Shown here one piece after another: positions 6,001-22,224 of a DNA stretch of 64,000 bases; within the stretch, counting starts at the first letter, position 1; every line of letters starts with the position of its first letter. Source of the stretch: a virus; IMG/VR virus record IMGVR_UViG_3300002092_001378, positions 37,757-101,756 of that record. One strand, written 5' to 3'. The notes beneath the pieces were generated by a model. That model had not been told where the DNA came from, did not search any database, and saw only the letters and a program-made list of their open reading frames with translations. The position numbers and the translations under genes are program-made.

Positions 6001-9000
6001 TTACAAGTGGTAGATATTTTGAATGTAATACTGATATTTCGATAACAAATTCGGTTACTTGGGAAGCAAACACATATTTTGTAAAGGGTTCTGTTATTGT
6101 CAATGACAATACTGCTTATCTAGTAGCTGACAACTATACAAGTCCAATCTTGTTTACTAATTTTGTTGCGCAGTCAACTATAGCATGGACTGCAAATACA
6201 TTCTTCACTGAAGGGCAAATCTTAAAGTTTGCTGGCATTTCCTATAAGGTATTAAATGATTACACTTCTGCTGGATCATTTGATACAAATAACTTAGTGG
6301 AGCTTTATGAAAATTATATCATTAACGTATTCCCAATTGCCGAGTACACCGGCGGATATTTTGATGATGCAAGTTCTAGAGTTTGGGGTTATTATCAACC
6401 AGCAGCTGGTATGCCAGGAAAAGATCTTGCTCAGGTCATGACAGGTATTGATTATCCAGGTGTAAACGTACTTGGTGCAACATTTGATCAAGCTCCTGGA
6501 TACGGATTTGGATTATATGAACAAATAAAGTATGATACTAGAACCTACGATGAAAATGGATTACTTGATATCTATGGCAGTCAGTCATTGGATACAGTAC
6601 TGCATAGTCTTTACACTGACACTCAACTTGGTCTACGTCCGGCAGATATTATAAGTGATGGTTCGCAGTTTATTGATGTCTATAACAGTCATGCTCCTGA
6701 AGAATTAATTCCCGGACATATGTTTGATAGCTTAAACATGAGAGTTAAGACTTTGACTGCAACTGTGGTTGAAACTGCTCCTAAAGTATTAGTAGTTTCT
6801 CAATATGCAGACAATGTGACAACTAAGTTTTATTTTGATCCAGCGTTGCTAAGTCCTCCTCAGCCACATACAAACTTGCCAGTTGAAAACATTGAAAATG
6901 TAACAGTATTCAGTGACTTTGAAGGACCAAGAACTCAGGGTGTTGATTACACAGTTAATTGGGAAGCTCGTTATATTGAATTCCTAAATCCTCCAAAAAC
7001 ACCAAGCAGCATCTATATTTCAATATATGGTAACAGTGGTCAGAGAGTTGTTTATAATAACGAATTTATATCTGACGGTATACAGTTAGAATATGTGGCC
7101 GAAGATGTAACTTTAGATGTTGTGCAACAGGCTTATGTAAAAGTCAACAATGTACTTGCAGATAATTGGACTATTGTAAAAAATGATATAGTTGCTGATT
7201 GGCTACCGGTCTTTAGTTACAGCAAGGATGATTATGTACAATACGAAGGGATAACATATAGAGCAACCGAAGATTTCACAACTGATGTTGAGTTTAATTT
7301 AACATATCTTACAGCAGCAAATAAAGTCGTTATTAGATTTGATGAGGCACCAGAGGCAGGAGCAAGAATACAAATTCACTTGTATGATTTCCCAATTACA
7401 CAGAAAGCATACAGTCAAATTATGAATGAGCGTGTAGTAGTGCCAGTGGGTTATTCTGGGTCAGCACTTGGCTATCAGACTGATTTGCCAGAAGATCAAG
7501 GATTTGCGTATCCAAGAGAAGCAAATATGGTAGTCAAACTCAATGGATTAACACTGGAGCCAAGTAATCAAAGTTATTATACTGGTACAGGTATGAAAAC
7601 TTTATTTGCTATGTCAGCTACACGAAACATTGCCAATAAATTACAAGTTGATTTAATTGTTACTGTTGATGGGGTATTAAAATCTCAAAATCTAGACTAC
7701 CTAGTTAATAATAATGGTGTGGCAACTCCAACCATTACATTTACTACACCCCCTCCAATGGGATCAAGAATTATTATAAGTGATAGAAGTACATCAAAGT
7801 ATATTATTAATGATACAAATGTATTAACTATACGTCCAACTGTCGCTTTAAGTCCAGGTGATGTCATTGATATTGTACAGTACAGTAACTATGATCAATA
7901 TCAATTTAATGTACAAGTATTTTCCGGATCATTAACTGATACGGTTAGTGCTGCATTGGGATTTGAAGATATTGGCTTTGATCAAATGGGATTTGATAAT
8001 GAATTAACCAATACCCTAAGTTCAGTAACCTTTACAGTTACTAGACCAGTGACAAATATTTCAAATGTTGAAATTACATTGAATGGTATTGTATTGCAAG
8101 CATATATTGATTACTACTTCGTAACACCAACAGTAGTTCGTTTGGATCCAGGGTTAAGCATTGTTAGTGACTCAATTATTGTTATAAGACAAGTGAGTGA
8201 AGATCATGCTCTACCATCACTGGAATACCGAATCTTTAAGAACATTGCAGAAACTTATGACTACATTGGTATTGGTGCATCTACTACAACAGTATTAACT
8301 AAGGACTTTGCAATTGGTGATGAGTGGATGTATGTTCAAGATACTACGGTATTTGGAAGACCTGATCCATCACTTGCAATCCCAGGTATATTGTTCTTAA
8401 ATGGTGAACGAATCACATATTATTTTGTTGATACAATTAACAAGAGATTAGGCCAATTAAGAAGAGGAACAAATGGAACTGGTGCTGGCGATCTGTACGA
8501 AAAAGGCACAAAAGTATATGATGCAAGTGCTAAAAATGAGATTCCAATGGCTAGAGACACATATACTATAACAAATCCAACTATTAATTGGAAAGCTGAA
8601 ACTAGTATTGTAAAGGACTCATTAATATCACATGATGGTTTGATCTACAGATCTTCTATGAATTTCACACCAAATACAGATTTTGAAACAACAATGACAA
8701 TGTTTTATCAAGTAACATTGTTAAACACAATCAAGTGGACTGCCAACAGATCATTCTCCGCAGGTACTATTATTAGTAACAGTGGAGTATTCTACAAAGT
8801 TCTAAACGATTTTACGTCAGGAGCTAGTTTCAGCAGAACTAATTTGGCTACAGCATTGCCCTGGGTAGCAAATACTGCTTACGTCAAGAATGACCTAATC
8901 AGTTACAATGGTGCAACTTACCAAGCAAAGGCATCGTTTACCAGTAGAAGTGCATTTGAAACTTCAATTGTTGTTCTTACTGAAACTGGCATTGCAACAC

Positions 9001-9158: not shown

Positions 9159-9835
9159 TGACAAACAATAAACCCGAGGTTTCTGTTAGAATAAATAAAG
9201 AACAGCAAGAGAAACAAAAAATGTCTAAACCAGATGAAACCAGTGGTATACGAATTGAGGGTCACATTAAAATATGGGATCCTAGTAGTGGCGAAATTAT
9301 TGTTAATAAACGTAATGCTATTCATTATGAAAACTTCAGCCAAGCTCTTGCTCACAGTGTGGGTAATCAACAAGAGGGTTGGATTGCAGAAATGGCATTT
9401 GGAAATGGTGGTACCAGTGTTGACCCCACTGGTGTTATAACCTATTTGCCAACAAATACTTCAGGCAGTAATGCTGCATTGTACAATCAAACATATTATA
9501 AGGTTGTTGATGCAAATAGTATCTATAATACTGATCCCACTAGAAACTTAATTCAAGTAAGACACGTTCCCGGAACAGTATACACTGATGTGCTTGTGAG
9601 TTGTTTGCTTGATTACGGTGAGCCCAGTGACCAACAGGCATTTGACAATAGCACTAGCATGGCTGATGTTTATGTCTTTGATGAGCTAGGTTTGAAAGCT
9701 TATAATGTCAATGGTATTAACACTGGCAATTTATTAACTCATGTTATTTTTCATCCAGTGCAGAAGTCATTAAACAGACTTATTCAAATTGATTATACGG
9801 TTCGAATTCAGACACTAACTACATTAACATCATAA
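9158..9835 (+). CDS. Phage structural protein (baseplate/fibre attachment-like)
   Basis: 225 aa, coupled by a TAATG overlap to the giant gene. Motifs MAFGNGG, FDELGL and LTHVIFHPVQKSLNR resemble jumbo-phage baseplate-region proteins as I recall them. Confidence 0.6.
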   Translation: MTNNKPEVSVRINKEQQEKQKMSKPDETSGIRIEGHIKIWDPSSGEIIVNKRNAIHYENFSQALAHSVGNQQEGWIAEMAFGNGGTSVDPTGVITYLPTNTSGSNAALYNQTYYKVVDANSIYNTDPTRNLIQVRHVPGTVYTDVLVSCLLDYGEPSDQQAFDNSTSMADVYVFDELGLKAYNVNGINTGNLLTHVIFHPVQKSLNRLIQIDYTVRIQTLTTLTS

Positions 9836-9849
9836 GGTTGTATCATTAG

Positions 9850-10779
9850 ATGCCATACTATATTAATCACACAAACGGAACAAGTCTTGTCACAGTAGAA
9901 GATGGTACTGTAGACAATACGACTACGAGTATTAATCTTGTTGGCAAGAGTTTTCCAACTTATGGTCAATTGTTTAATCAGAATTTTGTCAATCTATTGG
10001 AAAATTTTTCCAATACCAGTGCTCCTGATACCCCACTAATTGGACAAATTTGGTACGATAGTGCTAACAAAAACTTAAGTTTTTATAGAGAAGGATCGAC
10101 AGACAGTTATTGGCAAAAGGTTGCCATGACTCATGAAGGCACAACAGCGCCCAGTGATCCTCGCTTGGGTGATTTGTGGTGGGACACTAATAATGCTCAG
10201 TTAAAAATATATGACTCAAGTCAGACACCAAATTGGCGTGTTATTGGCCCGCAGACTACTAACAATGGTCAGTTAAACGTAACAAGTGCCACTGGCTTGG
10301 TAATTCAAGTAAGTGGCAATAACTCGTTGCAAATTGATGCATCCAGTGCAGTTATTTTAAATTACAATCCATGTTTTTATGGCTATGGACATACTAGTGG
10401 TGCAACTTCAATAATTGGAAGTGGTATCACAACATATAATGCATGGATGCCAAGACCATTGAGTACTACTATTGACAAGGGTACAAATTGGGATGCAGTG
10501 CATTCATGGTTTAATGTTAATACAACAGGTGTTTACCGCGTAACTTCAAGTATTACAACTTTGGGTGGTGGAAATATTAATCTAAAATGGCAAGTTTCTG
10601 GTTCTGATCAGAATATTTCGTCTACTAACAATCATACAAGTTCAGAAGTTCATCATTTGACATGCTCGGGGTTAATTAGAGCAAGCAGTGGTACTTACAT
10701 TCAATTACTTTGGAGTGCTGATTCTGTTGCAAGTGTGAGCACGTCCAATGCTACCTACAGTATAGAATTTGTTGGCTAA
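9850..10779 (+). CDS. Tail fibre paralog 1 (shared N-terminal module, C1q-like beta C-terminus)
   Basis: N-terminus LVGK..YG..NQNFVNLLENF..P..GQIWYD is shared with three other genes in the window. C-terminus F.V..TGVY.V resembles a C1q/TNF-like head. Confidence 0.7.
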   Translation: MPYYINHTNGTSLVTVEDGTVDNTTTSINLVGKSFPTYGQLFNQNFVNLLENFSNTSAPDTPLIGQIWYDSANKNLSFYREGSTDSYWQKVAMTHEGTTAPSDPRLGDLWWDTNNAQLKIYDSSQTPNWRVIGPQTTNNGQLNVTSATGLVIQVSGNNSLQIDASSAVILNYNPCFYGYGHTSGATSIIGSGITTYNAWMPRPLSTTIDKGTNWDAVHSWFNVNTTGVYRVTSSITTLGGGNINLKWQVSGSDQNISSTNNHTSSEVHHLTCSGLIRASSGTYIQLLWSADSVASVSTSNATYSIEFVG

Positions 10780-10785
10780 AGCCAA

Positions 10786-10791
10786 TAAATA
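10786..10791 (+). promoter_or_regulatory. TAAATA late-promoter-like motif
   Basis: Lies in the short intergenic gap before 10808. The same hexamer recurs upstream of many genes and matches the core of the T4-type late promoter TATAAATA. Confidence 0.6.
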
Positions 10792-10807
10792 ACTGAGGGA
10801 AAGATAC

Positions 10808-12667
10808 ATGGCATATATTGTTAATAAAACAGATGGAAATATTGCTGCTGTTGTTAATGACGGCACGCTTAGTACAGTTACGAGCATAAAGCTTGTTGGT
10901 ATCGGTTACCAAAATTATGCTGAAACAATTGCTGAAAATCTTGTGCAGATGATGGAAAACTTTGCACACATAATACCCCCAACTGGACCTCTTCCTGGAC
11001 AAATTTGGTTTAACAAAAATACCAGTCATTTGCAAGTTTATGACGGTGTAATGTTTAAGGAAATTAACAATACTGCAATTAGTGACTCTACACCAATACA
11101 CGCCAGAACCGGTGATTTTTGGTTTAATAACACCACAAAACAATTATTTTTCTATAGAAATGGTAACTGGCAAGTAATTGCTCCTGCGTATCCAGCAAGT
11201 ATGGGTGCAACAGACCTAGTAGCTGAAGGGTTAACTGATCTTAGTGGCAACGTACATCCTGCTGTTACTTTATATGTTGATGGTAGTAGAATGGCCATTA
11301 TCAGTAAAGACGATAGTTATATGCCCATTCCTTATATTGAAGGGTTTACAAATGTAAATCCAGGCATAAACTTAATTGAATATCCAGGATATAGATACAG
11401 TGGTATAGTAGACTATGCAGGAGCAGCATATGGTTTACTATCAGACGCCGATGCAACGTATATGCATGCCAACTCCGATGCCAGTACAGTAGGTACATTG
11501 AGTGTTATAAATGATGGTGGGATTGCAATTGGCGCAAATGGTGATGTTGTTATATCATCAATAGTAGCCAGTCCCTATACTTTTGGTTCATCTATAACAT
11601 CAACAACTGATAAATCTTTGGCATTAGTTGGTTATGGCGGTGGCACATTAGTAATGGATAACGCTACTAATTGGATCGCCATTAATAAGATTAATCCCAC
11701 TGCTGACTTAGATGTTGGTGGCTCAATTAATGCTGACGAGACTATTACTTCGCAGGGCGGTTATTATTTTACTGATGGCAGCTTTATAAATTATTCTAAT
11801 GTAAGCGGGTTAAGCACAATAAGATTGGCACCAGGTGGTGAGTTAGTTGCATTAACTGCTGATAGCACAGGCAATATTTTTGTTCAGGGATCTTCCAACT
11901 TTAATGATTCAATTGGAGTAACTGGTAGTGCTGTAGTGACAGGCAATGTTAGTATACAAACTTGGCCAACTGAAAATTATCATGCCACATCTAAGCAATA
12001 TACTGAATCTTTAACAGTATCAAATATGTTACCATATGGTAGTATTATCATGTGGTATGGTACAGTGGCAGATGTACCAGATGGATGGGCAGTATGCAAT
12101 GGATCAAATGGAACACCAGACTTAACTGATAAGTTTGTTATGGGTGCCGGAAACCAAGCTGAATTAGGAACTATTGGTGGACAAAGCTTTGCAACAATAA
12201 CAACAAATTTAAGCGGAGCACATACACATACTGGATCAACTGCATCTGCCGGTAGTCATGATCACTCAGGATTAACAGGCGCACATGCGTTGACACCGGG
12301 AGAACTTGCAAGCCATCAACATACGTTTAACGACGTCTATGCTCTTCAGGATGATGCTAATCCACCATTATATGACAGAAATGGTAATAGAGTCTTTAGG
12401 TACAGTAGTTGGGGTGATGATGGCGACAATGATTCTGGTAACCCTGCATACTTTGAAAGTATTACAGATAGTGCTGGTTCAAGTGATCCACATAATCATC
12501 CAATAAGTTCTGATGGTATTCATTCACATGCATTGGCAATAGATCAAACAGCCGCGCATTTACATACAATTGATAATTTTGACAATAGACCTAGCTTTAT
12601 GGCATTATACTATATTATGAAAGTGGCAAATGCACTAGTAGAACCTTTACAACCACCGGGTTATTAA
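10808..12667 (+). CDS. Tail fibre paralog 2 with tail-collar domain and His-rich tip
   Basis: Shared N-terminal module, collar motif GSIIMWYG..VPDGWAVCNGSNGTPDL, several HxH motifs and terminal NRPSFMALYYIMK. Confidence 0.85.
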   Translation: MAYIVNKTDGNIAAVVNDGTLSTVTSIKLVGIGYQNYAETIAENLVQMMENFAHIIPPTGPLPGQIWFNKNTSHLQVYDGVMFKEINNTAISDSTPIHARTGDFWFNNTTKQLFFYRNGNWQVIAPAYPASMGATDLVAEGLTDLSGNVHPAVTLYVDGSRMAIISKDDSYMPIPYIEGFTNVNPGINLIEYPGYRYSGIVDYAGAAYGLLSDADATYMHANSDASTVGTLSVINDGGIAIGANGDVVISSIVASPYTFGSSITSTTDKSLALVGYGGGTLVMDNATNWIAINKINPTADLDVGGSINADETITSQGGYYFTDGSFINYSNVSGLSTIRLAPGGELVALTADSTGNIFVQGSSNFNDSIGVTGSAVVTGNVSIQTWPTENYHATSKQYTESLTVSNMLPYGSIIMWYGTVADVPDGWAVCNGSNGTPDLTDKFVMGAGNQAELGTIGGQSFATITTNLSGAHTHTGSTASAGSHDHSGLTGAHALTPGELASHQHTFNDVYALQDDANPPLYDRNGNRVFRYSSWGDDGDNDSGNPAYFESITDSAGSSDPHNHPISSDGIHSHALAIDQTAAHLHTIDNFDNRPSFMALYYIMKVANALVEPLQPPGY

Positions 12668-12700: not shown

Positions 12701-14293
12701 ATGTCATATAGTATTACTACGTCCAATAACGCAACTTCCTATCTGGTACCAGATGGTCGTTTAAATTCCGACACTTCCTTGGATTTTATTGGTAAGGGAA
12801 CAACTGCATATGGTACATCACTTAACTCAAATTTTTTACATCTATTAGAAAGTTTTGCGGCACCAACTCCTCCAGCGCGATCAATTGCTGGGCAAATATG
12901 GTTTGATACTTCAACTGGATACCTTAAAGTCAGCAATGGGCTTGGATTTAATTATGTAACGGGCCCAATTGATTTTATTGATCACAGTACAATTGGTAAT
13001 ATTTTACTACAGTCAAGCAGTATTACTGGCACACTCACTAACGCTAATGTAAACATTACACCCAATGGTACAGGAAGCACTGTAATTAAGAACATTGCAT
13101 CTAATAATTTTACTGTTGGTCGTGTTCCTTATATTGCTGCAAATGGTGCATTAGTTACAAATGCAATGAGTTATAATGTAGTAACTGATACATTAGCTGC
13201 CGCATATCTAACTGCTGGTAGTGGTATATCAGGGCTATTAACTACTGCTGCTCAGACTAATATTACAAGTCTCGGAACTTTAAATACACTTGCGGTTAAC
13301 AGTGCAAGTGCAATTTCACTTACTTCTGCAAATACAAATGTTGTTGGGAACGCCACAGTTAGTGCAAATCTAGGAGTCAGTGGCACTGGTAATTTTGCTG
13401 GTACGGTTAATGCAGCGACAGTATTAGCAACTTCAATTGGTAATTCAACTACTGTAATGACTGCTGCTACATTTACTGGCACACATAATGGAACACACAA
13501 CGGTGCATTAAACGGGGCACATAATGGAACTGTTGGTGCAACTACTGCTAACACTGGAAATTTTACCACTATCACTGCTTCGACGATCAGTACGACTGGT
13601 GGATTGTCTGGAGTTGCAACAAACTTCAATACGAATCCAGCAAGTATAGATACAGGTAGAATATTTGCTATCTATAATACAAATTATATGCCGGGAGCAA
13701 GTTACAGCTCTTCTGATTCACGTATATTTGACTTTGGTGTGACTACTGGTAATATCGCTTATCTACGTACAAGTGGAACCAATGGGTTTCAAATTTTATC
13801 AGGTGGAAGTGGCACCAGTTTTAATAACTCAATATTACCTACAACTACTGCCACCTATAATTTAGGTTCATCAGGTGCTACTTGGGCAACTATCTACGGT
13901 CTAGCAACATCTGCAAAGTACGCTGACTTGGCGGAAAATTATGTTGCTGATGATGATTATGAGCCCGGCACTGTTGTTATATTTGGTGGGGATCAGGAAG
14001 TTACTGTTTGCGATAAAGATGCAAGCAATGCTATTGCTGGTGTAATTTCAACTGAACCAGGCTACTTAATGAATGCTGCAATTAATGTACCACATGTTGC
14101 CACAGTGGCATTAGTTGGCCGTGTTCCAACTAAGGTTAAAGGGCCAATTAAAAAGGGACAGATGCTGGTTGGAACTGCTGACGGCATGGCTCGCGCAGAA
14201 GACAATCCCAAGATGGGAACAGTAATTGGCAAGGCGCTTAAAGACTTTAACGGTGACGTTGGGGTTATTGAAGTTGTAGTTGGGCGTCTCTAA
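12701..14293 (+). CDS. Tail fibre paralog 3 with C-terminal intramolecular chaperone-like domain
   Basis: Shared N-terminal module, Thr/Gly/Asn-rich shaft, and C-terminal YADLAENY...PGTVV...GVIST.PGYLMN...ALVGRVP...IGKAL. Confidence 0.8.
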   Translation: MSYSITTSNNATSYLVPDGRLNSDTSLDFIGKGTTAYGTSLNSNFLHLLESFAAPTPPARSIAGQIWFDTSTGYLKVSNGLGFNYVTGPIDFIDHSTIGNILLQSSSITGTLTNANVNITPNGTGSTVIKNIASNNFTVGRVPYIAANGALVTNAMSYNVVTDTLAAAYLTAGSGISGLLTTAAQTNITSLGTLNTLAVNSASAISLTSANTNVVGNATVSANLGVSGTGNFAGTVNAATVLATSIGNSTTVMTAATFTGTHNGTHNGALNGAHNGTVGATTANTGNFTTITASTISTTGGLSGVATNFNTNPASIDTGRIFAIYNTNYMPGASYSSSDSRIFDFGVTTGNIAYLRTSGTNGFQILSGGSGTSFNNSILPTTTATYNLGSSGATWATIYGLATSAKYADLAENYVADDDYEPGTVVIFGGDQEVTVCDKDASNAIAGVISTEPGYLMNAAINVPHVATVALVGRVPTKVKGPIKKGQMLVGTADGMARAEDNPKMGTVIGKALKDFNGDVGVIEVVVGRL

Positions 14294-14946
14294 ACATAGT
14301 CTGCATCAAAAACAATACAGTTTCTAGGTAAATCACTGTGATGTTCAGTTACTGCATGCCATACTTCAGGTTTATGAAGTACTAATTCTCCCTCTGATGG
14401 CTGCAAATACCATTTGTCTTTTTCATCATAGATCGTGTGCAATGTGTCAGGTATACCGTTTTTAATAAACACCAAATTACTAGAATTTTCAGGCACATCT
14501 AGGTAAAAAATTGCCACTATATCAGCTCTAAAATTTTCACTACTTAAATCAGTATATTCTGCCATATAAGAATCTAGCTCAATATGTCTATGACATTTGC
14601 CCTGTGATCCTTTGACCATTCTATTTGCCCAAGCACGTTTATAAGAAACACTAGTGCCCAATTTATTGATTCCAAGTGTGTTTTTTGCTAACAAAATTTG
14701 TTCGCTTACCCATTGAGTTAAAGGTTGAGCGCCAGGCAAATGTATTACTTGCAAGTATGTCTGCCCAACAGTTGTCATGCCTCCGCCCACATGGCTATCT
14801 CCACGCGGTGCTTTTACTCTGAATTTTACTTCAGGTAAATTTAATACACGATTAATACTTTTTGTTAAATCGCTGTTCCTATATAGTGATACATCTGTGC
14901 ATTGTATTCTAACTACAGTGCTGCCAAAAACATTTTCAACTTTCAA
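14290..14946 (-). CDS. Putative Fe(II)/2OG oxygenase (TIGR02466-like)
   Basis: WAN...HRH...IFYL...LV...WHAV...R..IVFD pattern of a double-stranded beta-helix oxygenase. Ends in TAG. Confidence 0.7.
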   Translation of the reverse strand: MKVENVFGSTVVRIQCTDVSLYRNSDLTKSINRVLNLPEVKFRVKAPRGDSHVGGGMTTVGQTYLQVIHLPGAQPLTQWVSEQILLAKNTLGINKLGTSVSYKRAWANRMVKGSQGKCHRHIELDSYMAEYTDLSSENFRADIVAIFYLDVPENSSNLVFIKNGIPDTLHTIYDEKDKWYLQPSEGELVLHKPEVWHAVTEHHSDLPRNCIVFDADYV

Positions 14947-16327
14947 CTTTTTTCCTTATGAAATCTGCATGATCTTGTAAATGACTTGTATCTAGATTTT
15001 TAACCTGTAAAGGCTTTATGATTCCAATTCCTGCCATAACATATTTCCAATCTTTAAAATCCAATGGTCTTAAGTAGTCTGTTACTTTGTTTGTGGGCAT
15101 TATTCTTATCAAATAATCTAAATCTTTTTCAGTTAACTTTTCACCAAATTCAATGACATTTTTTACCAAGTCTGGTATTGTATTTTTGTTTTTAAAATTG
15201 CGCCAAAAAACGGTGTCAGTTCTTTTGGTCATATAATGTAAGTGTACAAAACAGGAGTTTTCTTCGTTAAGCTGCCTAACTGCATTATTGTATTCATCAA
15301 TGGACTGTTGGTGTTTGTGTCTGCCCATGCCATTAATTTTTGCTTGTAGCATCCTTAGGCTCATAATTGAAATGCCAATTGCAGTTGCTTCTAAAGGTTC
15401 AGCAAATCCACTGGAAAGCCCAATGGCAATGCAATTATTGATCCAAGTTTTTTCGTAACAGCCTGCATTAAAATTAAAAATCTTAGGAGGAATTACTTCA
15501 ACTCCAAAATATTCTTCTAATTCTTTTTTAATTTCCTCATCAGTAGCTAGGTTACTGTCAAATACATAACCACACCCAAATCTATCTTGTACAGGAATCT
15601 TCCAAGCCCACCCATGTTTCATTCCAATAGATTCTGTATATGAAGGAATATTTTCATTGTCATGTGGTAAAAAAAATGGCATTGCTCTATTAACAGGTAA
15701 AAAATCTGCATAGGAATGCCAAGTAGCTTTGTAAAAATTACCTATAATTAATTTTTTAAACCCGCTGCAATCAAATACAAAATCTAGTTTAATTTTTTGA
15801 TTATTGGATAACACTAGCTCACTGATGTCATTTTTATCATTCGGTATTATTTCTGTTACTTGTGCATCTATATATTCTATACCACGTTGAATGGCAAACC
15901 CCTTAAGGTAGTCGGCCATTATCATTGCGTTAAAATGAACTGAATCTTCGGTCAATATTCCATTATGTCTAATTCGTTGATTGTTATAATCAAAGAGAAC
16001 TTTATTTTCTTTTGCTGCTGCGATACTGATATCTTCTGTGGAAGAAATAGCTGAATGAAAATAAGAAGTGCCGTCTCCGTTCCAGTTAGTAAACTTAATA
16101 GCATTTTTTATGGTAATTTTACATTTCTTTATTACTTCATTGAAGTCCAACCCCAGATCATTTTCTAAAAATTCACTGAAATTTTTAGTGGTTCCTTCAC
16201 CAGCACCAAGTACTCCTATTTCACTACTTGCGACAACCGTTACATTGCTATATGGGATATTTTTTTGCACATACAATGCCGTAAGCCAACCAGCAGTTCC
16301 ACCACCTACTACAACAAATTTTTTCAT
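14936..16327 (-). CDS. Flavin-dependent halogenase (tryptophan halogenase family)
   Basis: GGGTAG FAD motif, GEGT, Lys in ITIKNAIKF (position of the catalytic Lys), FDCSGF, WAWKIP (WxWxIP) and GFAEPLEAT. Confidence 0.9.
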   Translation of the reverse strand: MKKFVVVGGGTAGWLTALYVQKNIPYSNVTVVASSEIGVLGAGEGTTKNFSEFLENDLGLDFNEVIKKCKITIKNAIKFTNWNGDGTSYFHSAISSTEDISIAAAKENKVLFDYNNQRIRHNGILTEDSVHFNAMIMADYLKGFAIQRGIEYIDAQVTEIIPNDKNDISELVLSNNQKIKLDFVFDCSGFKKLIIGNFYKATWHSYADFLPVNRAMPFFLPHDNENIPSYTESIGMKHGWAWKIPVQDRFGCGYVFDSNLATDEEIKKELEEYFGVEVIPPKIFNFNAGCYEKTWINNCIAIGLSSGFAEPLEATAIGISIMSLRMLQAKINGMGRHKHQQSIDEYNNAVRQLNEENSCFVHLHYMTKRTDTVFWRNFKNKNTIPDLVKNVIEFGEKLTEKDLDYLIRIMPTNKVTDYLRPLDFKDWKYVMAGIGIIKPLQVKNLDTSHLQDHADFIRKKVES

Positions 16328-16902
16328 GACAAATACCTAAATTCTAATACCAAACTTACTCTTAAATCATCGCTAAGGTTTGTTTCAACGCTATGAATAG
16401 CATAAGAAGGAAATAAAATAAGTTTGCCAGGTTCCGGAGTTACTCGATGTGTCATATAACCTGAATTATTCTTCTTATTTGTATCAAATGTTTGTTTAAC
16501 ATATGGATCTTGCCATATGTCAGGAACAGATCCTCTTGCGTCATGTATTAATAGATCTCCGCAATTTTTAGGAGCTTTTAAATAATAAACACCAACTACA
16601 CCGTCTACATATGGATGGTGGTGTGGTGGATCACTTTCCAATGGTCGCCGAACATGTTGACGACCCCTTATTTGTACAGTATTAAAAGTAATACCATAAT
16701 CTCTTGCAACTTGTTCGGCAATATCAATTACTTTATCTTTAAACTCAGTGATACCCTCACCCGGCATATCAAATAGTATATAATCCCCATTGGCCTTATA
16801 GTTTAAGGTATCCATTAATATTTTCTTGTTCATCATTCTAGCATCGTCAAAGTTAACAATCCAGACTGGGGTAGAAAACATTAGATTAGTATTAATATCC
16901 AT
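16324..16902 (-). CDS. Putative Fe(II)/2OG oxygenase (TIGR02466-like)
   Basis: Start moved to ATG 16902 (MDINTNLMFSTPVW). Motifs PHHHP..GVYYLKAPKNCGDL..D.R..P.PGKLILFPSY..HSV..N....RVS. Confidence 0.8.
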   Translation of the reverse strand: MDINTNLMFSTPVWIVNFDDARMMNKKILMDTLNYKANGDYILFDMPGEGITEFKDKVIDIAEQVARDYGITFNTVQIRGRQHVRRPLESDPPHHHPYVDGVVGVYYLKAPKNCGDLLIHDARGSVPDIWQDPYVKQTFDTNKKNNSGYMTHRVTPEPGKLILFPSYAIHSVETNLSDDLRVSLVLEFRYLS

Positions 16903-17473
16903 TTTCAATCCCTTTATTGATAAATCTAAATTCAAATACTACACTAATCCTTGTATCATTGCTAAAATTGGGTTCGACTGAATGTATTAGATAGTTGGGA
17001 AACAATAGTAACATGCCAGGTTTAGGTTCAATCTTAACAGATACCCTCCCGTCCCTCATTATACCATCATTGGTAATATTAGGATCTTTCCACATATTTG
17101 AAACTGAACCTCGGCAGTCTATAAACTGTATGTCCCCGCAATTTTTTGGAGTTTTAAGGTAATATATACCTAGCATATCAGACCCTGGATGATGATGTGG
17201 GGTATCAAACTCGCCAGGTTTCATTGGGTTAAGTCGACTTCGAATATTTAAATTATCGTACACCCAATTATTTTCAACAGCAATTTCTGTAACAGCATCT
17301 ATAATAATTTTTTTAAGTTCGGCAATGCCCTCACTTGGTAAATCAAGAAATTCTTGATTTCCGGTTTTATATTCAGCACTATCTACTATGAGTTTTTTAT
17401 TTAAGAACCGATAATCTTCAACTTGATATATCCACAGTGGAGTAGCAAACAGTTGCTTTACTTGTCTTTGCAC
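16892..17473 (-). CDS. Putative Fe(II)/2OG oxygenase (TIGR02466-like), paralog of the adjacent gene
   Basis: LFATPLW, PHHHP, GIYYLKTPKNCGDI, PGMLLLFPNYLIHSVEPN...RIS. Confidence 0.8.
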   Translation of the reverse strand: MQRQVKQLFATPLWIYQVEDYRFLNKKLIVDSAEYKTGNQEFLDLPSEGIAELKKIIIDAVTEIAVENNWVYDNLNIRSRLNPMKPGEFDTPHHHPGSDMLGIYYLKTPKNCGDIQFIDCRGSVSNMWKDPNITNDGIMRDGRVSVKIEPKPGMLLLFPNYLIHSVEPNFSNDTRISVVFEFRFINKGIENGY

Positions 17474-17474
17474 A

Positions 17475-18134
17475 TTAAAGTCTTTCTAGATCCTGCTTCA
17501 ATTTAGAAACGATGTCATCGTGTAGATCTTCATTGTCATAAATTTCAGATGTCAGTGAATATTCAATAACAATATGATTTGGTTCAATGGCAGAGAACAC
17601 ATTGTAAATTAAATCAGCTGGTACTGTGTCTAGTGTATGACCGGCAACTTTACATGAAATTACAATCTTGTCCTCTCCATATAATTCATAGACAGTAACA
17701 GCCTCAACGCCATCAACGTCGTCAATTAATTGTAACAGTTTTGACAAATTATCAGAGTAATTGGAAATAGGAGCTAATGAACGATTGTTATAAAGCAGAG
17801 AAGAAACTTTTGTTTCAGGATCAATGAAAAAAGTAATGTTTTTAGAATGGTCATTACTTAATGTAGATATCACTGCAAACGCTTCTTCCGCAACATTTGT
17901 TTTTGCCAACTGATCGACTGAGTCAATTAAATTATCAGTAACAACTATATTCAATACTCCACCGTCAAATTCAAAAATAAATTTAATTAAGTTTTTGCCA
18001 GTGATATTATACTTGCTTGCTATTTGCTTTACTGTGATTTCGTCTGGCACGTCGACTGATGCCTTTGTAAAAGCACTATGCCCTGTAAATAAATCAAATA
18101 CCTTTTGTATATTTTTAGTAACTGTTATTGACAT
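17475..18134 (-). CDS. Hypothetical protein within the modification cassette
   Basis: 219-aa ORF tightly packed between the radical SAM and oxygenase genes. No motif recognised. Confidence 0.6.
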   Translation of the reverse strand: MSITVTKNIQKVFDLFTGHSAFTKASVDVPDEITVKQIASKYNITGKNLIKFIFEFDGGVLNIVVTDNLIDSVDQLAKTNVAEEAFAVISTLSNDHSKNITFFIDPETKVSSLLYNNRSLAPISNYSDNLSKLLQLIDDVDGVEAVTVYELYGEDKIVISCKVAGHTLDTVPADLIYNVFSAIEPNHIVIEYSLTSEIYDNEDLHDDIVSKLKQDLERL

Positions 18135-18137
18135 TTG

Positions 18138-19604
18138 TTATCCTTTAAGGCTTTTTGCAAGCCATCCTTCAACTTTTGCCTGACCGTAAATTTCTATGTC
18201 GTCAATCATTCCAGTTTTTTCAATTACTACCTTTTTAGTAGTCCACTTGGGAGTATTCATATCCGTATGTTCATAAACAGTTCCCCAAATGTCTTGCCTA
18301 CCCAATGGCAATCCGTCGCCTTCAATGGTAACAGGAATAAACCCATTGGTCATTTTTACAAAACTTAGAGCAAATAAAGGAACATTATCTGAGTATGCAC
18401 TGTCGCAAGTTGCATCCCAATTTGGACCATCTAGATACATGCAAGATCCCTTGCATAGCTGTAGTACAGGACAATCTTTACACCCTGCTCTATTTTTCCA
18501 ATGTGTGACAGATTTTAATGCTACATTAGCATAATCTTCTAAATTACCACCTAGATGCGGCTCACCATTCTTACTTAATTCCTTAACACTTACATTTTGA
18601 CATGTGACAATGTTACCCAATAGGTCCACAGCAATTGTATGCTCATCATCCATGCCGCATTTTTGTCCAAGATTTGCAGCATCAAAATGATTCAAAACAC
18701 TTTTAGTAAAATTATCAATTTTTTCGTATTGCCCATAAAATCCCAATGTATCTTCGTATCCATACACATCATTAAAACTCTGACGTCTATATTCAAAATG
18801 TTCATTCAATGTAGCAAAACTACTATTAAGGCCATCATCGTCGTAAGCATCGACGAAAGACCCTTCGCCTATAATTACATCAGGATCGCCGGTAAATTCA
18901 ACAAACCAATCATAAACTGCACGTCTGCTGGTATTACTTTTGTTCATCATAGTATTAAAGCTAATCCTGCCATGTGGTTTCATAACTTTATAGAATTCCA
19001 TAAGAATTTTCTTTTTTTCAGGATCAATGAATGGGTCCGGACCTCTTGTTGGTTGCCCAGGGCCATCATGGCTAATGCCAACATTAAAGCCCATATAATA
19101 CAACCACGAGCAAATTTCTCTAGTTAGTAAACTGCCATTAGTAATAACACTGAAAACAGGTTTTGTTTTCCAACTATCAAATTTCTCATCAAGTGCTTCT
19201 GCCAATGGTTTTAATGTCTTCCAATAAACGAAAGGTTCTCCGCCCCAAAATTCAATCTTTAACCCTTTATCTTCACGAAATTCTAACACATCCATTTTAG
19301 CAAGAAATGCATCTATATCCTTCTTACTGGTCTCATCAGGACGTTCAACAAACTTTTGACTACAATAGCTGCATGAATAGTTGCAACTTAACCCCAATTG
19401 AATTTTAAGTGTATTAATTTTATTTGATTTTAGTAGAGGATCTTCTTTGGAAAATGCTCGGCTGGGAGTTAATCCAGAAAAATTTGCAAGATTAGGATAT
19501 TCAAAAACAAATCCTGATTCATCTGTCAGAATATTTTTTTGATTGTCGTAAAAAAATGTTTTACGACCCTCGCCAGCCTTTTCTGCTTCTACTTTAAATA
19601 ACAT
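18138..19604 (-). CDS. Radical SAM/SPASM peptide-maturase-like enzyme
   Basis: CNYSCSYC (CX3CX2C), FWGGEP, ITNGSLL, ISHDGP. C-terminal SPASM Cys set CGMD...CQ...CKDCPVLQLCKGSC...C. SD AAGGA upstream. Confidence 0.92.
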   Translation of the reverse strand: MLFKVEAEKAGEGRKTFFYDNQKNILTDESGFVFEYPNLANFSGLTPSRAFSKEDPLLKSNKINTLKIQLGLSCNYSCSYCSQKFVERPDETSKKDIDAFLAKMDVLEFREDKGLKIEFWGGEPFVYWKTLKPLAEALDEKFDSWKTKPVFSVITNGSLLTREICSWLYYMGFNVGISHDGPGQPTRGPDPFIDPEKKKILMEFYKVMKPHGRISFNTMMNKSNTSRRAVYDWFVEFTGDPDVIIGEGSFVDAYDDDGLNSSFATLNEHFEYRRQSFNDVYGYEDTLGFYGQYEKIDNFTKSVLNHFDAANLGQKCGMDDEHTIAVDLLGNIVTCQNVSVKELSKNGEPHLGGNLEDYANVALKSVTHWKNRAGCKDCPVLQLCKGSCMYLDGPNWDATCDSAYSDNVPLFALSFVKMTNGFIPVTIEGDGLPLGRQDIWGTVYEHTDMNTPKWTTKKVVIEKTGMIDDIEIYGQAKVEGWLAKSLKG

Positions 19605-19628
19605 TCGATATTCCTTGATTTGTTGAAT

Positions 19629-20009
19629 TTACCATAAACAAGCACATAAACAAAGGCAATTGCAGTTATAAGAGCGTGTAGTGATAGTACAATTATATGT
19701 ACATGCACAATTGCAATTGGTTTGTAGGTATGACTGTGCGTCGCAGTTTGCACAATCTACAGTGCCATTAATTACACAATTTACACAGTTAATATTGCCA
19801 CTTCCCAGTGATTCAACACAATTCCCGTTATCGCAATTTCCATCAGCATTGCGCTGATAATATGCTTTACTATACTTGCCTGACAACGGATTGGTTGGTA
19901 CTTTCTCAACAGATTTAATCCAGCTCATACTCACACTAAGAGTAGTTGCACGTCCAAGTTCAGTATTAACGTCGCTAAATTTAATTATTCCGGAAGCTGG
20001 TAATGTCAT
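19629..20009 (-). CDS. Cys-rich small protein, putative radical SAM substrate (126 aa)
   Basis: ATG at 20009 (MTLPASG...). 15 Cys in the C-terminal ~70 aa, 10 of them as Asn-Cys, ending CNCLCLCACLW. First gene of the minus-strand cassette. Confidence 0.8.
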   Translation of the reverse strand: MTLPASGIIKFSDVNTELGRATTLSVSMSWIKSVEKVPTNPLSGKYSKAYYQRNADGNCDNGNCVESLGSGNINCVNCVINGTVDCANCDAQSYLQTNCNCACTYNCTITTRSYNCNCLCLCACLW

Positions 20010-20030
20010 GACTATTTCCAAATGTTACGG

Positions 20031-20036
20031 TATTTA
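20031..20036 (-). promoter_or_regulatory. TAAATA late-promoter-like motif for the modification cassette
   Basis: TATTTA on + reads TAAATA on -, 21 nt upstream of ATG 20009. Confidence 0.55.
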
Positions 20037-20057
20037 TCATCACATAACACTGTCATT

Positions 20058-20124: not shown

Positions 20125-22224
20125 ATGTCATATACAATTAATGTCACTAATAGTAATCCAATTACAATATTGTCAGGTACTTCAGATACCAGCACTGCAC
20201 TTACGCTTGTGGGAAAGAATATTTCTAACTACGGAGAAATATTTGCTCAAAATTTTGTTGACTTAATGCAAAACTTCGCAAGCCCCAGTGCTCCAAATGG
20301 GATATTAGAGGGACAATTATGGTATGACAGTGGCACATATTCCTTAAAATTATATAAGAACGGCAGCTATAAAGTTATATCAACTATTTCATCCAGTACA
20401 ACCGCCCCAACTGCCCCTTACATTGGTGATTTGTGGTGGGATACGGCAAATAGTCTTCTTAAGATATGGAATACTACTACTTGGGTTTCTATTGGCCCCA
20501 ACGTATTGAATACTTCCAGTTCAGCAGTTGCGGACGCTATACTTGACACCAATAATGTGCTGAGACCAATCTTAAAAATGGTAGTTGATTCGGCTGTTGT
20601 TGCAGTATTCAGTTCTGCTACCTTTGCACCTCAGACAACATATAACGGGCTTACATTAATTTACGGTGGCATGACACTTGTTGGTACCGGAACAACTTTC
20701 GGAAACATTGTTAGCTCATTTGCGTCAATTACTACTCTTAACGCAACTACAACTAATGCTTCGCAAGTAAATGCTGTTACTGTAGTTGCCACAACAATTG
20801 GAAATGCTAATTCAGCAATACGAGGAACAAGTGCCACCGTTGCTGGCGCAATTACTGCTGCAACTGTCAATGCACTTAATATTGGAAACGCCGGAGCTAC
20901 AATAACAGGTACACATAATGGTCCACATAATGGACCATTTAATGGAAATATTGGATCAGTAACTCCTAACACTGCTGTCTTTACAACTGTGACTGCTGAT
21001 ACTGTTACTGCAATAACTGTGACAGGTAATACTATAGGAAATACTGGTGCTACATTAACTGGTACGCTCTCAACTGCTACTCAACCAAATATTACAAGTG
21101 TGGGAACATTAACTGGTGCAACAGTAAATGGAACTTTAACTGCTACAACTGCCAATGCAACCACGGTAAATGCAACTACCACTAATAGTAGCACGGTAAA
21201 TGCATCGACTGTTAATGCTGTAACACTAGCGGCAACAAATATTGGTAATGCTACCTCGGTTGTAACTGGTGCAAGTGCTGCAATAGCTGGCACAGTGACC
21301 GCTGCAACAGTTAACGCCCTGGCAATCGGAAACAACGGTGCGATAATAACCGGAACACATAACGGTCCACTTAATGGACCATTTAATGGAACTATAGGCG
21401 CTACAGTTGCTAATACAGCAGCATTCACTACAATGGCAACATCGGGTACAACCAGTTTAGCAACATTGAGTGGTAATGTTGGGATTGGTACTGCGTCAGC
21501 TGCTGCAAAATTACATGTTGCGGGAACACTTAATTTAACGAGCACACTGTCAATATCTGGTGCTCCAGGTGGGAGTGGGCAATTCTTAACATCCGGTGGC
21601 GCAGGCGCCGCCCCTACTTGGACTAGTATGCGTAGCGGATTTAGCGACATGGTAGTTTATGGTGTGGCAGGCACTTATGCTTGGACTGTGCCGGCAAATG
21701 TTACTAAAATAAAAGCAACTGTTGTTGGTGGCGGTGGTGGTGGCGGCGGCAGTGGCCAAAATTATGATAGTGGCGCTGGTGGCGGCGGTGGTGGCACATC
21801 CACTAAAATTATTAGCGGTTTAACTCCTGGAACTTCTATTACTGTCACTGTTGGTGGTGGTGGCGGAGGTAGTAATGGTTGGGGAGGAACTGGGCAAACT
21901 GGCGGAACTTCGTCTGTTGGTTATTGCAGCGCGACAGGTGGTGAAGGTGGTGCTCCAACTTCTGGCTCTGGTGGCGTTGGCGGCATAGGTAATAGTGGAG
22001 ATATTAATATTAGAGGTCAGGCAGGTGGTTCCGGCATTGCGTGTGGTACATACGGCGGTAGTCCTGGGGGCAATGGCGGATCTTCTACGTTGGGTGGCGG
22101 CGGCCAAGGCGGATCAGGTACTGGTGGCATTGGTGGATCTTATGGCGGAGGCGGAGGCGGCGCCGGTGGTATATACACCTCAGGTGGCGCAGGCGCCACG
22201 GGTGTTGTAATAATAGAATACTAA
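20125..22224 (+). CDS. Tail fibre paralog 4 with Gly-rich C-terminal adhesin-like domain
   Basis: Shared N-terminal module, duplicated ~70-aa shaft segment, GNVGIGT motif, and C-terminal WTVPANVTKI..VVGGGGGG...GVVIIEY Gly-rich domain. Confidence 0.8.
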   Translation: MSYTINVTNSNPITILSGTSDTSTALTLVGKNISNYGEIFAQNFVDLMQNFASPSAPNGILEGQLWYDSGTYSLKLYKNGSYKVISTISSSTTAPTAPYIGDLWWDTANSLLKIWNTTTWVSIGPNVLNTSSSAVADAILDTNNVLRPILKMVVDSAVVAVFSSATFAPQTTYNGLTLIYGGMTLVGTGTTFGNIVSSFASITTLNATTTNASQVNAVTVVATTIGNANSAIRGTSATVAGAITAATVNALNIGNAGATITGTHNGPHNGPFNGNIGSVTPNTAVFTTVTADTVTAITVTGNTIGNTGATLTGTLSTATQPNITSVGTLTGATVNGTLTATTANATTVNATTTNSSTVNASTVNAVTLAATNIGNATSVVTGASAAIAGTVTAATVNALAIGNNGAIITGTHNGPLNGPFNGTIGATVANTAAFTTMATSGTTSLATLSGNVGIGTASAAAKLHVAGTLNLTSTLSISGAPGGSGQFLTSGGAGAAPTWTSMRSGFSDMVVYGVAGTYAWTVPANVTKIKATVVGGGGGGGGSGQNYDSGAGGGGGGTSTKIISGLTPGTSITVTVGGGGGGSNGWGGTGQTGGTSSVGYCSATGGEGGAPTSGSGGVGGIGNSGDINIRGQAGGSGIACGTYGGSPGGNGGSSTLGGGGQGGSGTGGIGGSYGGGGGGAGGIYTSGGAGATGVVIIEY

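What the first reader, a model, noticed from the sequence alone, without database searches (positions are those of the whole stretch)
14290..20036. Phage-encoded RiPP-like modification cassette inside the tail-fibre module
Seen: one tightly packed minus-strand unit running Cys-rich small protein > radical SAM/SPASM > orphan > 2 oxygenases > flavin halogenase > third oxygenase. It lies antisense between fibre genes and is headed by the same TAAATA motif as virion genes. No protease or exporter is present. Known: SPASM radical SAM enzymes next to Cys-rich peptides form thioether crosslinks (sacti/ranthipeptides), and halogenases and Fe/2OG enzymes are RiPP tailoring enzymes. Inference: the phage builds a crosslinked, possibly hydroxylated and halogenated small protein late in infection, more likely a virion component or lysis-released product than an exported peptide.
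Basis: partly seen in the sequence, partly recalled or inferred. Interest (0 to 1): 0.9.

Follow-up and report, generated by a model that had tools for sequence, protein, structure and literature searches.

The report
Enzyme cassette modifying phage fibre-tip protein
This phage carries, among its tail-fibre genes, a small protein with an asparagine-cysteine-rich end plus enzymes that probably cross-link it, oxidise it and halogenate its last tryptophan, chemistry known from peptide antibiotics that no paper I could search describes on a virus particle.

Summary
One minus-strand unit (14290-20036) encodes an Asn-Cys-rich 126-aa protein, a radical SAM/SPASM enzyme, a 219-aa protein, three 2OG-Fe(II) oxygenases and a flavin halogenase. 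It lies between fibre genes and is headed by the same ATAAATA motif.

The refutation test failed to refute. In 76 of 76 informative viral loci, the homologous radical SAM gene sits within 1-3 genes of an Asn-Cys protein. More distant homologues (35-58% identity) sit in prophage tail modules, beside fibre-type proteins that end in NCNCNC.

In relatives, self-cleaving fibre domains (Peptidase_S74 or Hint) follow the Cys-rich end. This points to a virion fibre part, not an exported peptide.

- The "orphan" is a conserved cassette member (26 unique homologues, always directly downstream of the enzyme).
- The halogenase co-occurs perfectly with a C-terminal Trp (25/25 against 0/25), across 2-3 changes on the enzyme tree.

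No chemistry is shown. Cys-Asx thioethers are inferred from the NxxcB, PapB, QhpD and CrpC precedents.

I found no paper describing this. This scan has already reported the same system on other DNA several times. I rate it a new variant of a known kind, of high interest.

The parts
20031..20038 (-). Late-promoter-like motif GATAAATA, 22-27 nt upstream of the ATG at 20009
   Evidence: The same (G/A)ATAAATA sits at the same distance ahead of fibre genes 10808, 12701, 20125, 22276 and 50941. This is the only ATAAATA on the minus strand of the window.
19629..20009 (-). Asn-Cys-rich substrate protein (126 aa from ATG 20009; the ORF is open from TTG 20021). It has an N-terminal ~55-aa domain (MTLPASGxIxFSDVNTELG...), a CxxC/NC-rich middle, the conserved core YLQTNCNCACTYNC...SYNCNC, and the tail LCLCACLW.
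   Evidence: There are 97 homologue clusters, none of them named. N-C pairs are invariant or nearly so. The closest relative, P0006 (85% identity), continues after ...CACAW with a Peptidase_S74 domain. In the AlphaFold2 model the N-terminal domain has pLDDT about 80 and the Cys core is below 45.
18138..19604 (-). Radical SAM/SPASM enzyme (488 aa), the predicted maturase of the Asn-Cys protein
   Evidence: C74/C78/C81 (CX3CX2C) and the seven SPASM cysteines C316, C335, C375, C378, C384, C388 and C400 are invariant, including in the RSP15 and JWF homologues. The best NCBIfam hit is PapB at 80 bits, far below its cut-off of 340. 253 clusters at 50% identity match at E<=1e-30.
17475..18134 (-).
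   Evidence: An iterated HMM finds 26 unique members, always directly downstream of the radical SAM gene in the Trp-tail clade. There are no invariant residues. The AlphaFold2 model has pLDDT 82.7. The best fold match is only Z 6.4.
16892..17473 (-). 2OG-Fe(II) oxygenase 1 (193 aa)
   Evidence: PF13759 73.2 bits; TIGR02466 74 bits (cut-off 62.5); phrog_81.
16324..16935 (-). 2OG-Fe(II) oxygenase 2 (203 aa from TTG; an ATG at about 16902 is a likelier start)
   Evidence: PF13759 53.4 bits.
14936..16327 (-). Flavin-dependent halogenase (463 aa)
   Evidence: PF04820 306.9 bits. GGGTAGW, GWAWKIP and GFAEPLEAT are conserved, and K74 is invariant. Its presence matches a C-terminal Trp on the substrate in 25 of 25 cases, against 0 of 25 without.
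14290..14946 (-). 2OG-Fe(II) oxygenase 3 (218 aa)
   Evidence: PF13759 38.1 bits. Its family (F45) also follows the halogenase in L004, L007-L009, L011 and L012.
12701..14293 (+). Flanking fibre gene (530 aa), convergent with the cassette (4-nt overlap)
   Evidence: phrog_19602 tail fibre and phrog_14394 virion structural protein.
20125..22224 (+). Flanking fibre gene (699 aa), divergent from the cassette; Gly-rich C-terminal domain
   Evidence: PF21722 Gly_rich_2 at 47.5 bits; phrog_863, phrog_6202 and phrog_21412 (tail fibre).

Best explanation
The cassette is a late-expressed maturation system for a small virion protein that sits on or at the tip of a fibre. The 126-aa protein has an N-terminal domain that probably docks it on a fibre, and an Asn-Cys-rich C-terminal domain. 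The dedicated radical SAM/SPASM enzyme acts on that domain. The most likely reaction joins Cys sulfur to the beta-carbon of Asn or Asp (ranthionine-type thioethers), giving a covalently stapled tip. The three 2OG-Fe(II) oxygenases probably hydroxylate residues of the same domain. The flavin halogenase probably chlorinates or brominates the C-terminal Trp. The conserved 219-aa protein is a non-catalytic helper. Shown: gene content, catalytic motifs, conserved synteny, the halogenase/Trp co-occurrence, and the fusions to fibre domains. Inferred: the chemistry, the order of steps, the docking and the presence in the virion.
For: (1) Enzyme and substrate travel together.
- 76 of 76 informative IMG/VR loci have the Asn-Cys gene within 1-3 genes of the radical SAM gene. 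The 4 loci without it are cut at the enzyme.
- In bacterial genome contigs, enzymes at 35-58% identity lie 1.5-3 kb from proteins whose extreme C-terminus is ...NCNCNC(A/D)C....

(2) The context is fibre-related.
- Homologues of the substrate continue with Peptidase_S74 (P0006 at 85% identity, L003, L035) or with Hint (L081, P0069) directly after the Cys tail.
- Achromobacter phage JWF gp028 is a true fibre with NCNCDCNCNCSC followed by Hint, two genes before the enzyme.
- The side fibre of Ralstonia phage RSP15 ends NTNCQCGN.
- In a Limnohabitans prophage the order is fibre, NC-tail protein, three 2OG oxygenases, radical SAM, minor tail protein, J protein.
- The N-terminal domain recurs on Gly-rich proteins of tail modules and is fused to Gly-rich plus Cys-rich domains in L005 and L010.

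(3) The same ATAAATA motif heads the cassette and the fibre genes.

(4) The Asn before Cys is itself invariant. Radical SAM Cys-Asn beta-thioethers are known (NxxcB, PMC9389541), as are protein-sized substrates (CrpC/CrpA and QhpD/QhpC, PMC13692751).

(5) Halogenase and terminal Trp: 25 of 25 against 0 of 25, with 2-3 joint changes on the enzyme tree. SrpI brominates a C-terminal Trp (PMC12615548).

(6) 2OG oxygenases accompany the enzyme in 47 viral loci and in prophages. An Asp/Asn beta-hydroxylase family (PF05118) is present in 43 loci.
Against: - No modification has been observed, and no virion proteome was available.
- In many T4-like loci the cassette lies beside PhoH, a DNA-binding protein and an exonuclease rather than fibres. 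There the substrate carries an unknown C-terminal domain with hydrophobic segments.
- The window's own protein has no S74 or Hint domain.
- The match of the N-terminal domain to gp38-type adhesins is weak (E 0.5-2).
- The enzyme is below the cut-off of every named maturase family.
- About half of the halogenase relatives occur without this enzyme or substrate.
- The 25/25 count is not corrected for relatedness.
Confidence: 0.55

Rival explanations
1. The substrate is the same, but the chemistry is different. The Asn-Cys domain is mainly a metal or Fe-S binding module (as His-x-His motifs bind iron in T4 fibres). The radical SAM enzyme then does something other than thioether formation, for example Cys to formylglycine (as anSME does), epimerisation or C-C coupling.
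For: - CxxC and CxCxC spacing suits metal binding.
- JWF's enzyme was annotated as an anaerobic sulfatase-maturating enzyme.
- The enzyme reaches no cut-off of any thioether family.
- The authors of the CrpA study themselves suspect metal binding (PMC13692751).
Against: - anSME (TIGR03942) scores 37.9 bits against a cut-off of 349.45, lower than PapB, the geopeptide maturase and QhpD.
- The Asn next to Cys is as conserved as the Cys. That fits an acceptor residue better than a ligand set.
Confidence: 0.2
2. It is a classical RiPP. The N-terminal domain is a leader, the core is cut off, and the product acts as a free peptide (antibacterial, signalling or superinfection-related) released at lysis.
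For: - The layout is leader plus core, beside a radical SAM/SPASM enzyme and tailoring enzymes, which is the RiPP pattern.
- In many T4-like loci the cassette is not next to fibres.
- The leader-like N-terminus is conserved from residue 2.
Against: - There is no protease or exporter here or in related loci.
- The core lies upstream of fibre-type self-cleaving domains in relatives.
- The same tail sits on 180-620-aa fibre-type proteins in prophage tail modules.
- The N-terminal domain also occurs on Gly-rich tail-module proteins that have no Cys core.
Confidence: 0.12
3. The genes are neighbours only because this is a variable island. The oxygenases and halogenase act on other targets (host metabolites, DNA or other virion proteins), as in cyanophage dioxygenase/halogenase arrays. 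Only the radical SAM enzyme, if any, acts on the small protein.
For: - Halogenase plus 2OG oxygenase pairs occur without this enzyme or substrate in about half of the sampled loci, and in Pelagibacter phage HTVC008M and cyanophages.
- Such arrays were earlier read as metabolite pathways (PMC2938197).
- The G+C content is lower than in the flanks.
Against: - The halogenase matches a terminal Trp perfectly wherever the radical SAM enzyme is present, across 2-3 changes on the tree.
- 2OG oxygenases stay with the enzyme even in distant prophages.
- The genes are packed as one unit behind one promoter-like motif.
Confidence: 0.08

Closest known systems
NxxcB/NxxcA (streptococcal radical SAM RiPP)
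   Same: A radical SAM/SPASM-type enzyme links Cys sulfur to the beta-carbon of Asn. It also accepts Asp or Ala at that position (PMC9389541). The phage substrate is built of N-C, D-C and A-C pairs.
   Different: NxxcA is a short secreted peptide with one NxxC motif. Here Asn is adjacent to Cys, there are many pairs, the substrate is a 126-aa protein of fibre type, and the enzyme shows no family-level match.
CrpC/CrpA of Methanococcus voltae (TIGR04463 family) and QhpD/QhpC
   Same: Radical SAM/SPASM enzymes that install ranthionine thioethers on cysteine-rich proteins rather than short peptides. N-terminal domains of the substrate help engagement (PMC13692751).
   Different: The host is an archaeal or bacterial cell and the product's role is unknown or is an enzyme subunit. 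TIGR04463 scores 39.8 bits against a cut-off of 525 here. There is no viral or virion context, and no halogenase or oxygenases.
PapB/PapA (freyrasin) ranthipeptide system, NF047865
   Same: This is the best-scoring named family for the enzyme (80.2 bits, residues 63-390). It makes Cys-to-Asp beta-thioethers in repeated motifs.
   Different: The cut-off of 340 is not reached. PapA has CxxxD repeats and is a small peptide, and it has no fibre context.
SrpI/SrpE and MibH (peptide Trp halogenases)
   Same: Flavin halogenases that act on a Trp in a ribosomal peptide. SrpI brominates a C-terminal Trp and depends on a large structured leader (PMC12615548).
   Different: Those products are free peptides from bacteria. 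The phage enzyme is closest to cyanophage and pelagiphage 'tryptophan halogenases' whose substrates are unknown.
Phage fibres with C-terminal intramolecular chaperone (Peptidase_S74) and gp38-type tip adhesins
   Same: Relatives of the substrate carry S74 directly after the Cys tail. A small protein with an N-terminal docking domain and a distal binding domain resembles the gp38 layout.
   Different: No enzymatic cross-linking is known for these fibres. The window's protein lacks S74 and ends where relatives are cut. The gp38 similarity is weak.
Cyanophage tandem dioxygenase / tryptophan halogenase arrays (Syn9 gp49-58 type)
   Same: Phage-borne 2OG oxygenases and halogenases in clusters near structural genes (PMC2938197).
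   Different: Those arrays were read as metabolite pathways and have no radical SAM/Asn-Cys pair. Here a specific protein substrate is identifiable.

Membership tests
Radical SAM superfamily with SPASM domain | CX3CX2C cluster motif, plus the seven-Cys SPASM motif (CX9-15GX4C, gap, CX2CX5CX3C, gap, C) | tested here: met
   PF04055 scores 31.2 (cut-off 29.5) and TIGR04085 scores 31 (cut-off 27). C74/78/81 and C316, C335, C375, C378, C384, C388 and C400 are invariant in 11 diverse homologues.
PapB ranthipeptide maturases (NF047865) | Score at or above the curated cut-off of 340 bits | tested here: not met
   80.2 bits. This is the best named hit, but it shows only superfamily-level likeness.
CrpC-type Cys-rich protein maturases (TIGR04463) | Score at or above the curated cut-off of 525 bits | tested here: not met
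   39.8 bits.
Anaerobic sulfatase maturase (TIGR03942) | Score at or above the cut-off of 349.45, and a sulfatase substrate with a C/S-x-P/A-x-R motif nearby | tested here: not met
   37.9 bits. No sulfatase gene is in the cassette.
RiPP pathway (classical) | Precursor with leader and core next to its modifying enzyme | tested here: met
   Conserved N-terminal domain plus a variable Cys core, adjacent to the enzyme in 76 of 76 loci.
RiPP pathway (classical) | Leader protease and/or exporter; small free product | tested here: not met
   No such family was found in the cassette or in related loci. Relatives are 180-620-aa fibre-type proteins.
RiPP pathway (classical) | RiPP recognition element (PqqD-like) on the enzyme or a partner | tested here: inconclusive
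   No PqqD/RRE family hit at E<=0.01 for the enzyme or the 219-aa protein. Only about 60 residues precede the radical SAM core. No dedicated RRE tool was available.
Flavin-dependent tryptophan halogenases (PF04820) | Family score, GxGxxG, WxWxIP, catalytic Lys and Glu | tested here: met
   306.9 bits (cut-off 21). GGGTAGW, GWAWKIP and GFAEPLEAT are present and K74 is invariant. Assigning the Lys and Glu as catalytic rests on my knowledge of PrnA/RebH.
2OG-Fe(II) oxygenases, PF13759 | Family score above 27 bits and metal-binding His residues | tested here: met
   73.2, 53.4 and 38.1 bits. HHH/HRH and a distal His are visible in the sequences. The substrate of this family is unknown.
Phage tail-fibre proteins with C-terminal self-cleaving domain | Peptidase_S74 or Hint domain at the C-terminus | tested here: not met
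   The window's protein ends at Trp with no such domain. Relatives at 85% and 55% identity have S74 right after the same tail, so the window encodes the equivalent of the cleaved form.
Virion structural protein | Detected in purified particles | not testable with these tools
   No proteome or cryo-EM data were available for this phage or for JWF or RSP15 in the searchable papers.

The most novel reading that the evidence does not exclude
Many unrelated phages and prophages harden or tune the host-binding tips of their fibres with RiPP-type enzymes. A dedicated radical SAM/SPASM enzyme staples Asn-Cys tails with thioethers. In one sub-lineage, which includes this phage, a flavin halogenase also puts a halogen on the C-terminal Trp. 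That would be the first enzymatically cross-linked and halogenated virion protein.
Probability: 0.35. Interest if true: 0.9.

Novelty: new variant of a known kind. Interest (0 to 1): 0.78.

Why it matters
Phage fibres decide host range. If their tips are matured by radical SAM, oxygenase and halogenase enzymes, sequence-based structure and host-range predictions for these fibres would be incomplete. Recombinant fibres made without the enzymes could also be non-native.

It would extend RiPP chemistry from secreted peptides to virus particles. It would give an abundant, unnamed radical SAM family (253 clusters at 50% identity) a substrate. It would also offer the first concrete protein substrate for the long-unexplained phage 'tryptophan halogenase' and 2OG oxygenase genes.

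The system is small (2-7 genes), so it can be tested directly by co-expression and mass spectrometry.

Tried and rejected
- **Near-identical DNA.** A megablast of the cassette against phage records gave no match.
- **Cys-rich protein.** It has no Pfam, PHROG or NCBIfam family, and the ESM Atlas gives only unnamed viral clusters. The AlphaFold2 model is confident only for residues 1-55, so the Cys core cannot be interpreted. The Foldseek BFVD hits to gp38-domain proteins are weak.
- **219-aa protein.** Foldseek against PDB gave nothing at E<=0.001. VIA-align gave a best Z of 6.4. Its rows are aminotransferase C-terminal domains and type III secretion chaperones, within the noise range stated by the tool. 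I therefore assign no fold.
- **Complex prediction.** The 219-aa protein with the Cys-rich protein returned 'no answer' (score 0.00). This is evidence neither for nor against binding.
- **Shared N-terminal domain.** An HMM of the N-terminal domain finds no second copy in the 101.7-kb contig, so the idea that flanking fibres share it is rejected.
- **Larger 'Cys family' members.** These (396-656 aa in L014, L027, L041 and others) are ordinary fibres that clustered only through their S74 domain.
- **Unknown C-terminal domain of the ~300-aa forms (SKIIC...).** It has no Pfam family and no Atlas lead.
- **Promoter and terminator scan.** Sigma-70 promoter-like sites are below, and terminator-like sites at about, the shuffle expectation.
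- I used viral-contig scans centred on the halogenase instead.
- **Literature.** Searches on radical SAM with tail fibre, SPASM, thioether, ranthipeptide or virion found no description of this system.

Full report
**What is there.** The window is the last 64 kb of a single 101,756-bp contig. Its baseplate-type gene 9158-9835 is closest to giant phages: Agrobacterium Atu_ph07, Sinorhizobium Phosso and Rak2-like Escherichia phages, at 44-54% identity. The contig may therefore be part of a larger genome.

Between plus-strand fibre genes lies one minus-strand unit of seven tightly packed genes:

| Coordinates | Product | Evidence |
|---|---|---|
| 19629-20009 | Asn-Cys-rich protein | 15 Cys, ends CNCLCLCACLW |
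| 18138-19604 | Radical SAM/SPASM enzyme | PF04055 31.2 bits, TIGR04085 31 bits |
| 17475-18134 | 219-aa protein | no family |
| 16892-17473 | 2OG-Fe(II) oxygenase | PF13759, 73 bits |
| 16324-16935 | 2OG-Fe(II) oxygenase | PF13759, 53 bits |
| 14936-16327 | Flavin halogenase | PF04820, 307 bits |
| 14290-14946 | 2OG-Fe(II) oxygenase | PF13759, 38 bits |

The enzyme's CX3CX2C motif and all seven SPASM cysteines are invariant across homologues down to 43% identity. The unit has 34-36% G+C against 38-43% around it.

(G/A)ATAAATA lies 22-28 nt before the start codons of five fibre or virion genes and of the Cys-rich gene. The copy before the Cys-rich gene is the only ATAAATA on the minus strand of the window.

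**The refutation test.** A scan of IMG/VR gave 80 loci with enzymes at 56-68% identity.
- In every locus that is not cut at the enzyme (76 of 76), a gene with the core W/YLQxNCNCACTYNC...SYNCNCxCxC lies within one to three genes, on the same strand.
- A scan of bacterial genome contigs with an enzyme alignment gave 80 more loci at 35-58% identity. Most come from freshwater Burkholderiales such as Limnohabitans, Polynucleobacter and Burkholderia paludis.
- In most of those with enough upstream DNA, a 180-620-aa protein 1.5-3 kb upstream ends in ...NCNCNC(A/D)C(C).
- The enzyme family has 253 clusters (at 50% identity) at E<=1e-30 in 1.84 billion representatives.

The pairing of enzyme and Asn-Cys tail is therefore old and general.

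**Why a virion fibre part.**
- The nearest relative of the window's protein (P0006, 85% identity) and several others continue, directly after ...CACAW, with a Peptidase_S74 intramolecular chaperone. Others continue with a Hint domain. Of these, S74 is the known self-cleaving C-terminal module of phage fibres and spikes.
- The window's protein stops exactly where those relatives would be cut. It therefore encodes the equivalent of the mature form.
- Achromobacter phage JWF gp028 is a 483-aa fibre with fibre repeats, then NCNCDCNCNCSC, then Hint. It lies two genes before the enzyme.
- Ralstonia phage RSP15 has the enzyme three genes after a side fibre ending NTNCQCGN.
- In Limnohabitans the order is tail fibre, NC-tail protein, an unknown gene, three 2OG oxygenases, radical SAM, minor tail protein, J protein.
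- In T4-like loci L014-L016, L036 and L041-L046 the pair follows large fibres and is convergent with gp15.
- The N-terminal domain (MTLPASGxIxxSDxNxExG) is unique in this contig. It recurs on a Gly-rich protein of the baseplate/fibre block of Pseudomonas phage Cygsa01. It is fused to Gly-rich plus Cys-rich domains in L005 and L010.

Against this, in many T4-like loci the cassette lies beside PhoH, a DNA-binding protein and an exonuclease. There the substrate carries an unknown C-terminal domain with hydrophobic stretches. Not every member is therefore proven to be fibre-bound.

**The 'orphan'.** A single-sequence search gave only weak hits. All of them were the gene directly downstream of the enzyme in other loci. 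Three rounds of HMM search collected 26 unique members. These sit always in that position, in the clade with a Trp tail plus L035. The alignment has no invariant residue. The AlphaFold2 model is confident (pLDDT 82.7) but matches no solved fold convincingly. I read it as a non-catalytic helper, and this reading is weak.

**Halogenase and terminal Trp.** I sampled loci from the halogenase side as well and tabulated unique substrates.
- All 25 that end in Trp, or have Trp just before the S74 cut, have a halogenase of at least 38% identity.
- None of the 25 without a terminal Trp, and with at least 6 kb of downstream DNA, has one (Fisher p = 1.6e-14, not corrected for relatedness).
- On a quick enzyme tree the Trp/halogenase loci form two separately supported clades, and the label needs 2-3 changes. 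The two traits therefore moved together more than once.
- The halogenase keeps GxGxxG, WxWxIP, an invariant Lys and the EPLE motif.
- About half of its relatives occur without this system.
- A divergent halogenase-like gene accompanies non-Trp tails in L016, L036, L038 and L041-L046.

The family therefore has other substrates too. SrpI, which brominates a C-terminal Trp in a leader-dependent way, is the nearest precedent (PMC12615548).

**Likely chemistry.** The Asn that precedes Cys is as conserved as the Cys (N58-C59, N85-C86, N88-C89, N100-C101 and N106-C107).
- Radical SAM enzymes are known to link Cys to the beta-carbon of Asn (NxxcB) or Asp (PapB, QhpD), and to act on whole proteins (CrpC).
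- The best-scoring named families here are PapB, the geopeptide maturase and QhpD, all far below their cut-offs. The closest solved structures are a cyclopropyl synthase (8VPO) and CteB (5WGG).
- 2OG oxygenases stay with the enzyme from this phage to distant prophages. A PF05118 Asp/Asn beta-hydroxylase and a B12-type radical SAM enzyme join it in T4-like loci.

Thioether formation plus hydroxylation of the Asn-Cys domain is the most economical reading, but none of it is shown.

**Comparison and novelty.** The system works like a ranthipeptide or CrpC-type pathway with RiPP-style tailoring. It fails the membership cut-offs of every named maturase family and lacks a protease and an exporter. 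Nine literature searches found no description of it. The nearest statements are cyanophage dioxygenase/halogenase arrays read as metabolite pathways (PMC2938197) and 'radical SAM cassettes' noted in pelagimyophage host-recognition clusters (PMC7029224).

Earlier follow-ups of this scan reported the same enzyme-plus-Asn-Cys-tail system, including the halogenase variant, on other genomes. My tests were run independently and agree with them.

**Verdict.** It is a new variant of a known kind, with interest 0.78.

Noticed in passing
window 43744-43815 (-): ARAGORN calls a single tRNA with anticodon CUA (amber) and labels it tRNA-Pyl. The phage otherwise reads well in table 11.
   Followed up: no
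window 26327-34713 (+): A run of seven further ORFs of about 300-480 aa, which earlier notes call tandem radical SAM genes, follows glycosyltransferase-like genes. None clustered with the B12-type radical SAM family (F14) that accompanies the cassette in T4-like loci.
   Followed up: no
window 10808, 12701, 20125, 22276, 50941, 51986 (upstream regions): (G/A/T)ATAAATA lies 22-44 nt upstream of fibre and virion genes. It resembles the T4 late promoter TATAAATA. There are 10 copies on the plus strand and 1 on the minus strand.
   Followed up: partly
window 3-9158, 51986-56590, 56652-63998 (+): Three giant ORFs (about 3051, 1534 and more than 2449 aa) hit virion structural PHROGs. Gene 9158-9835 is shared with giant phages such as Atu_ph07 and Rak2-like phages.
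   Followed up: partly
L020-L082 (e.g. L028 9468-10376): In most T4-like loci the Asn-Cys protein is about 300 aa. After the Cys tail it carries a conserved unknown domain that starts (S/G)KI(I/V)C(A/T)KL and ends in hydrophobic segments. It has no Pfam or Atlas lead. It occupies the place of S74 or Hint in other lineages.
   Followed up: partly
L176 (Limnohabitans sp. JirII-31) 888-11597; L171; L177 (Burkholderia paludis MSh1): Prophage-like tail modules in freshwater Burkholderiales carry an NC-tailed protein, one to three 2OG oxygenases and the radical SAM enzyme, between the fibre and the J-type tail genes.
   Followed up: partly
L016, L036, L038, L041-L046 (e.g. L041 10484-11686): A divergent Trp_halogenase-family gene (about 20% identity to the window's; PF04820 106 bits) accompanies substrates whose tails end in CNCNC without Trp. 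Its target must differ.
   Followed up: no
L084 (Pelagibacter phage HTVC008M) 4421-6380: The closest isolate homologue of the halogenase (39% identity) sits with a 2OG oxygenase between the small and large terminase genes. There is no radical SAM or Asn-Cys gene nearby.
   Followed up: no
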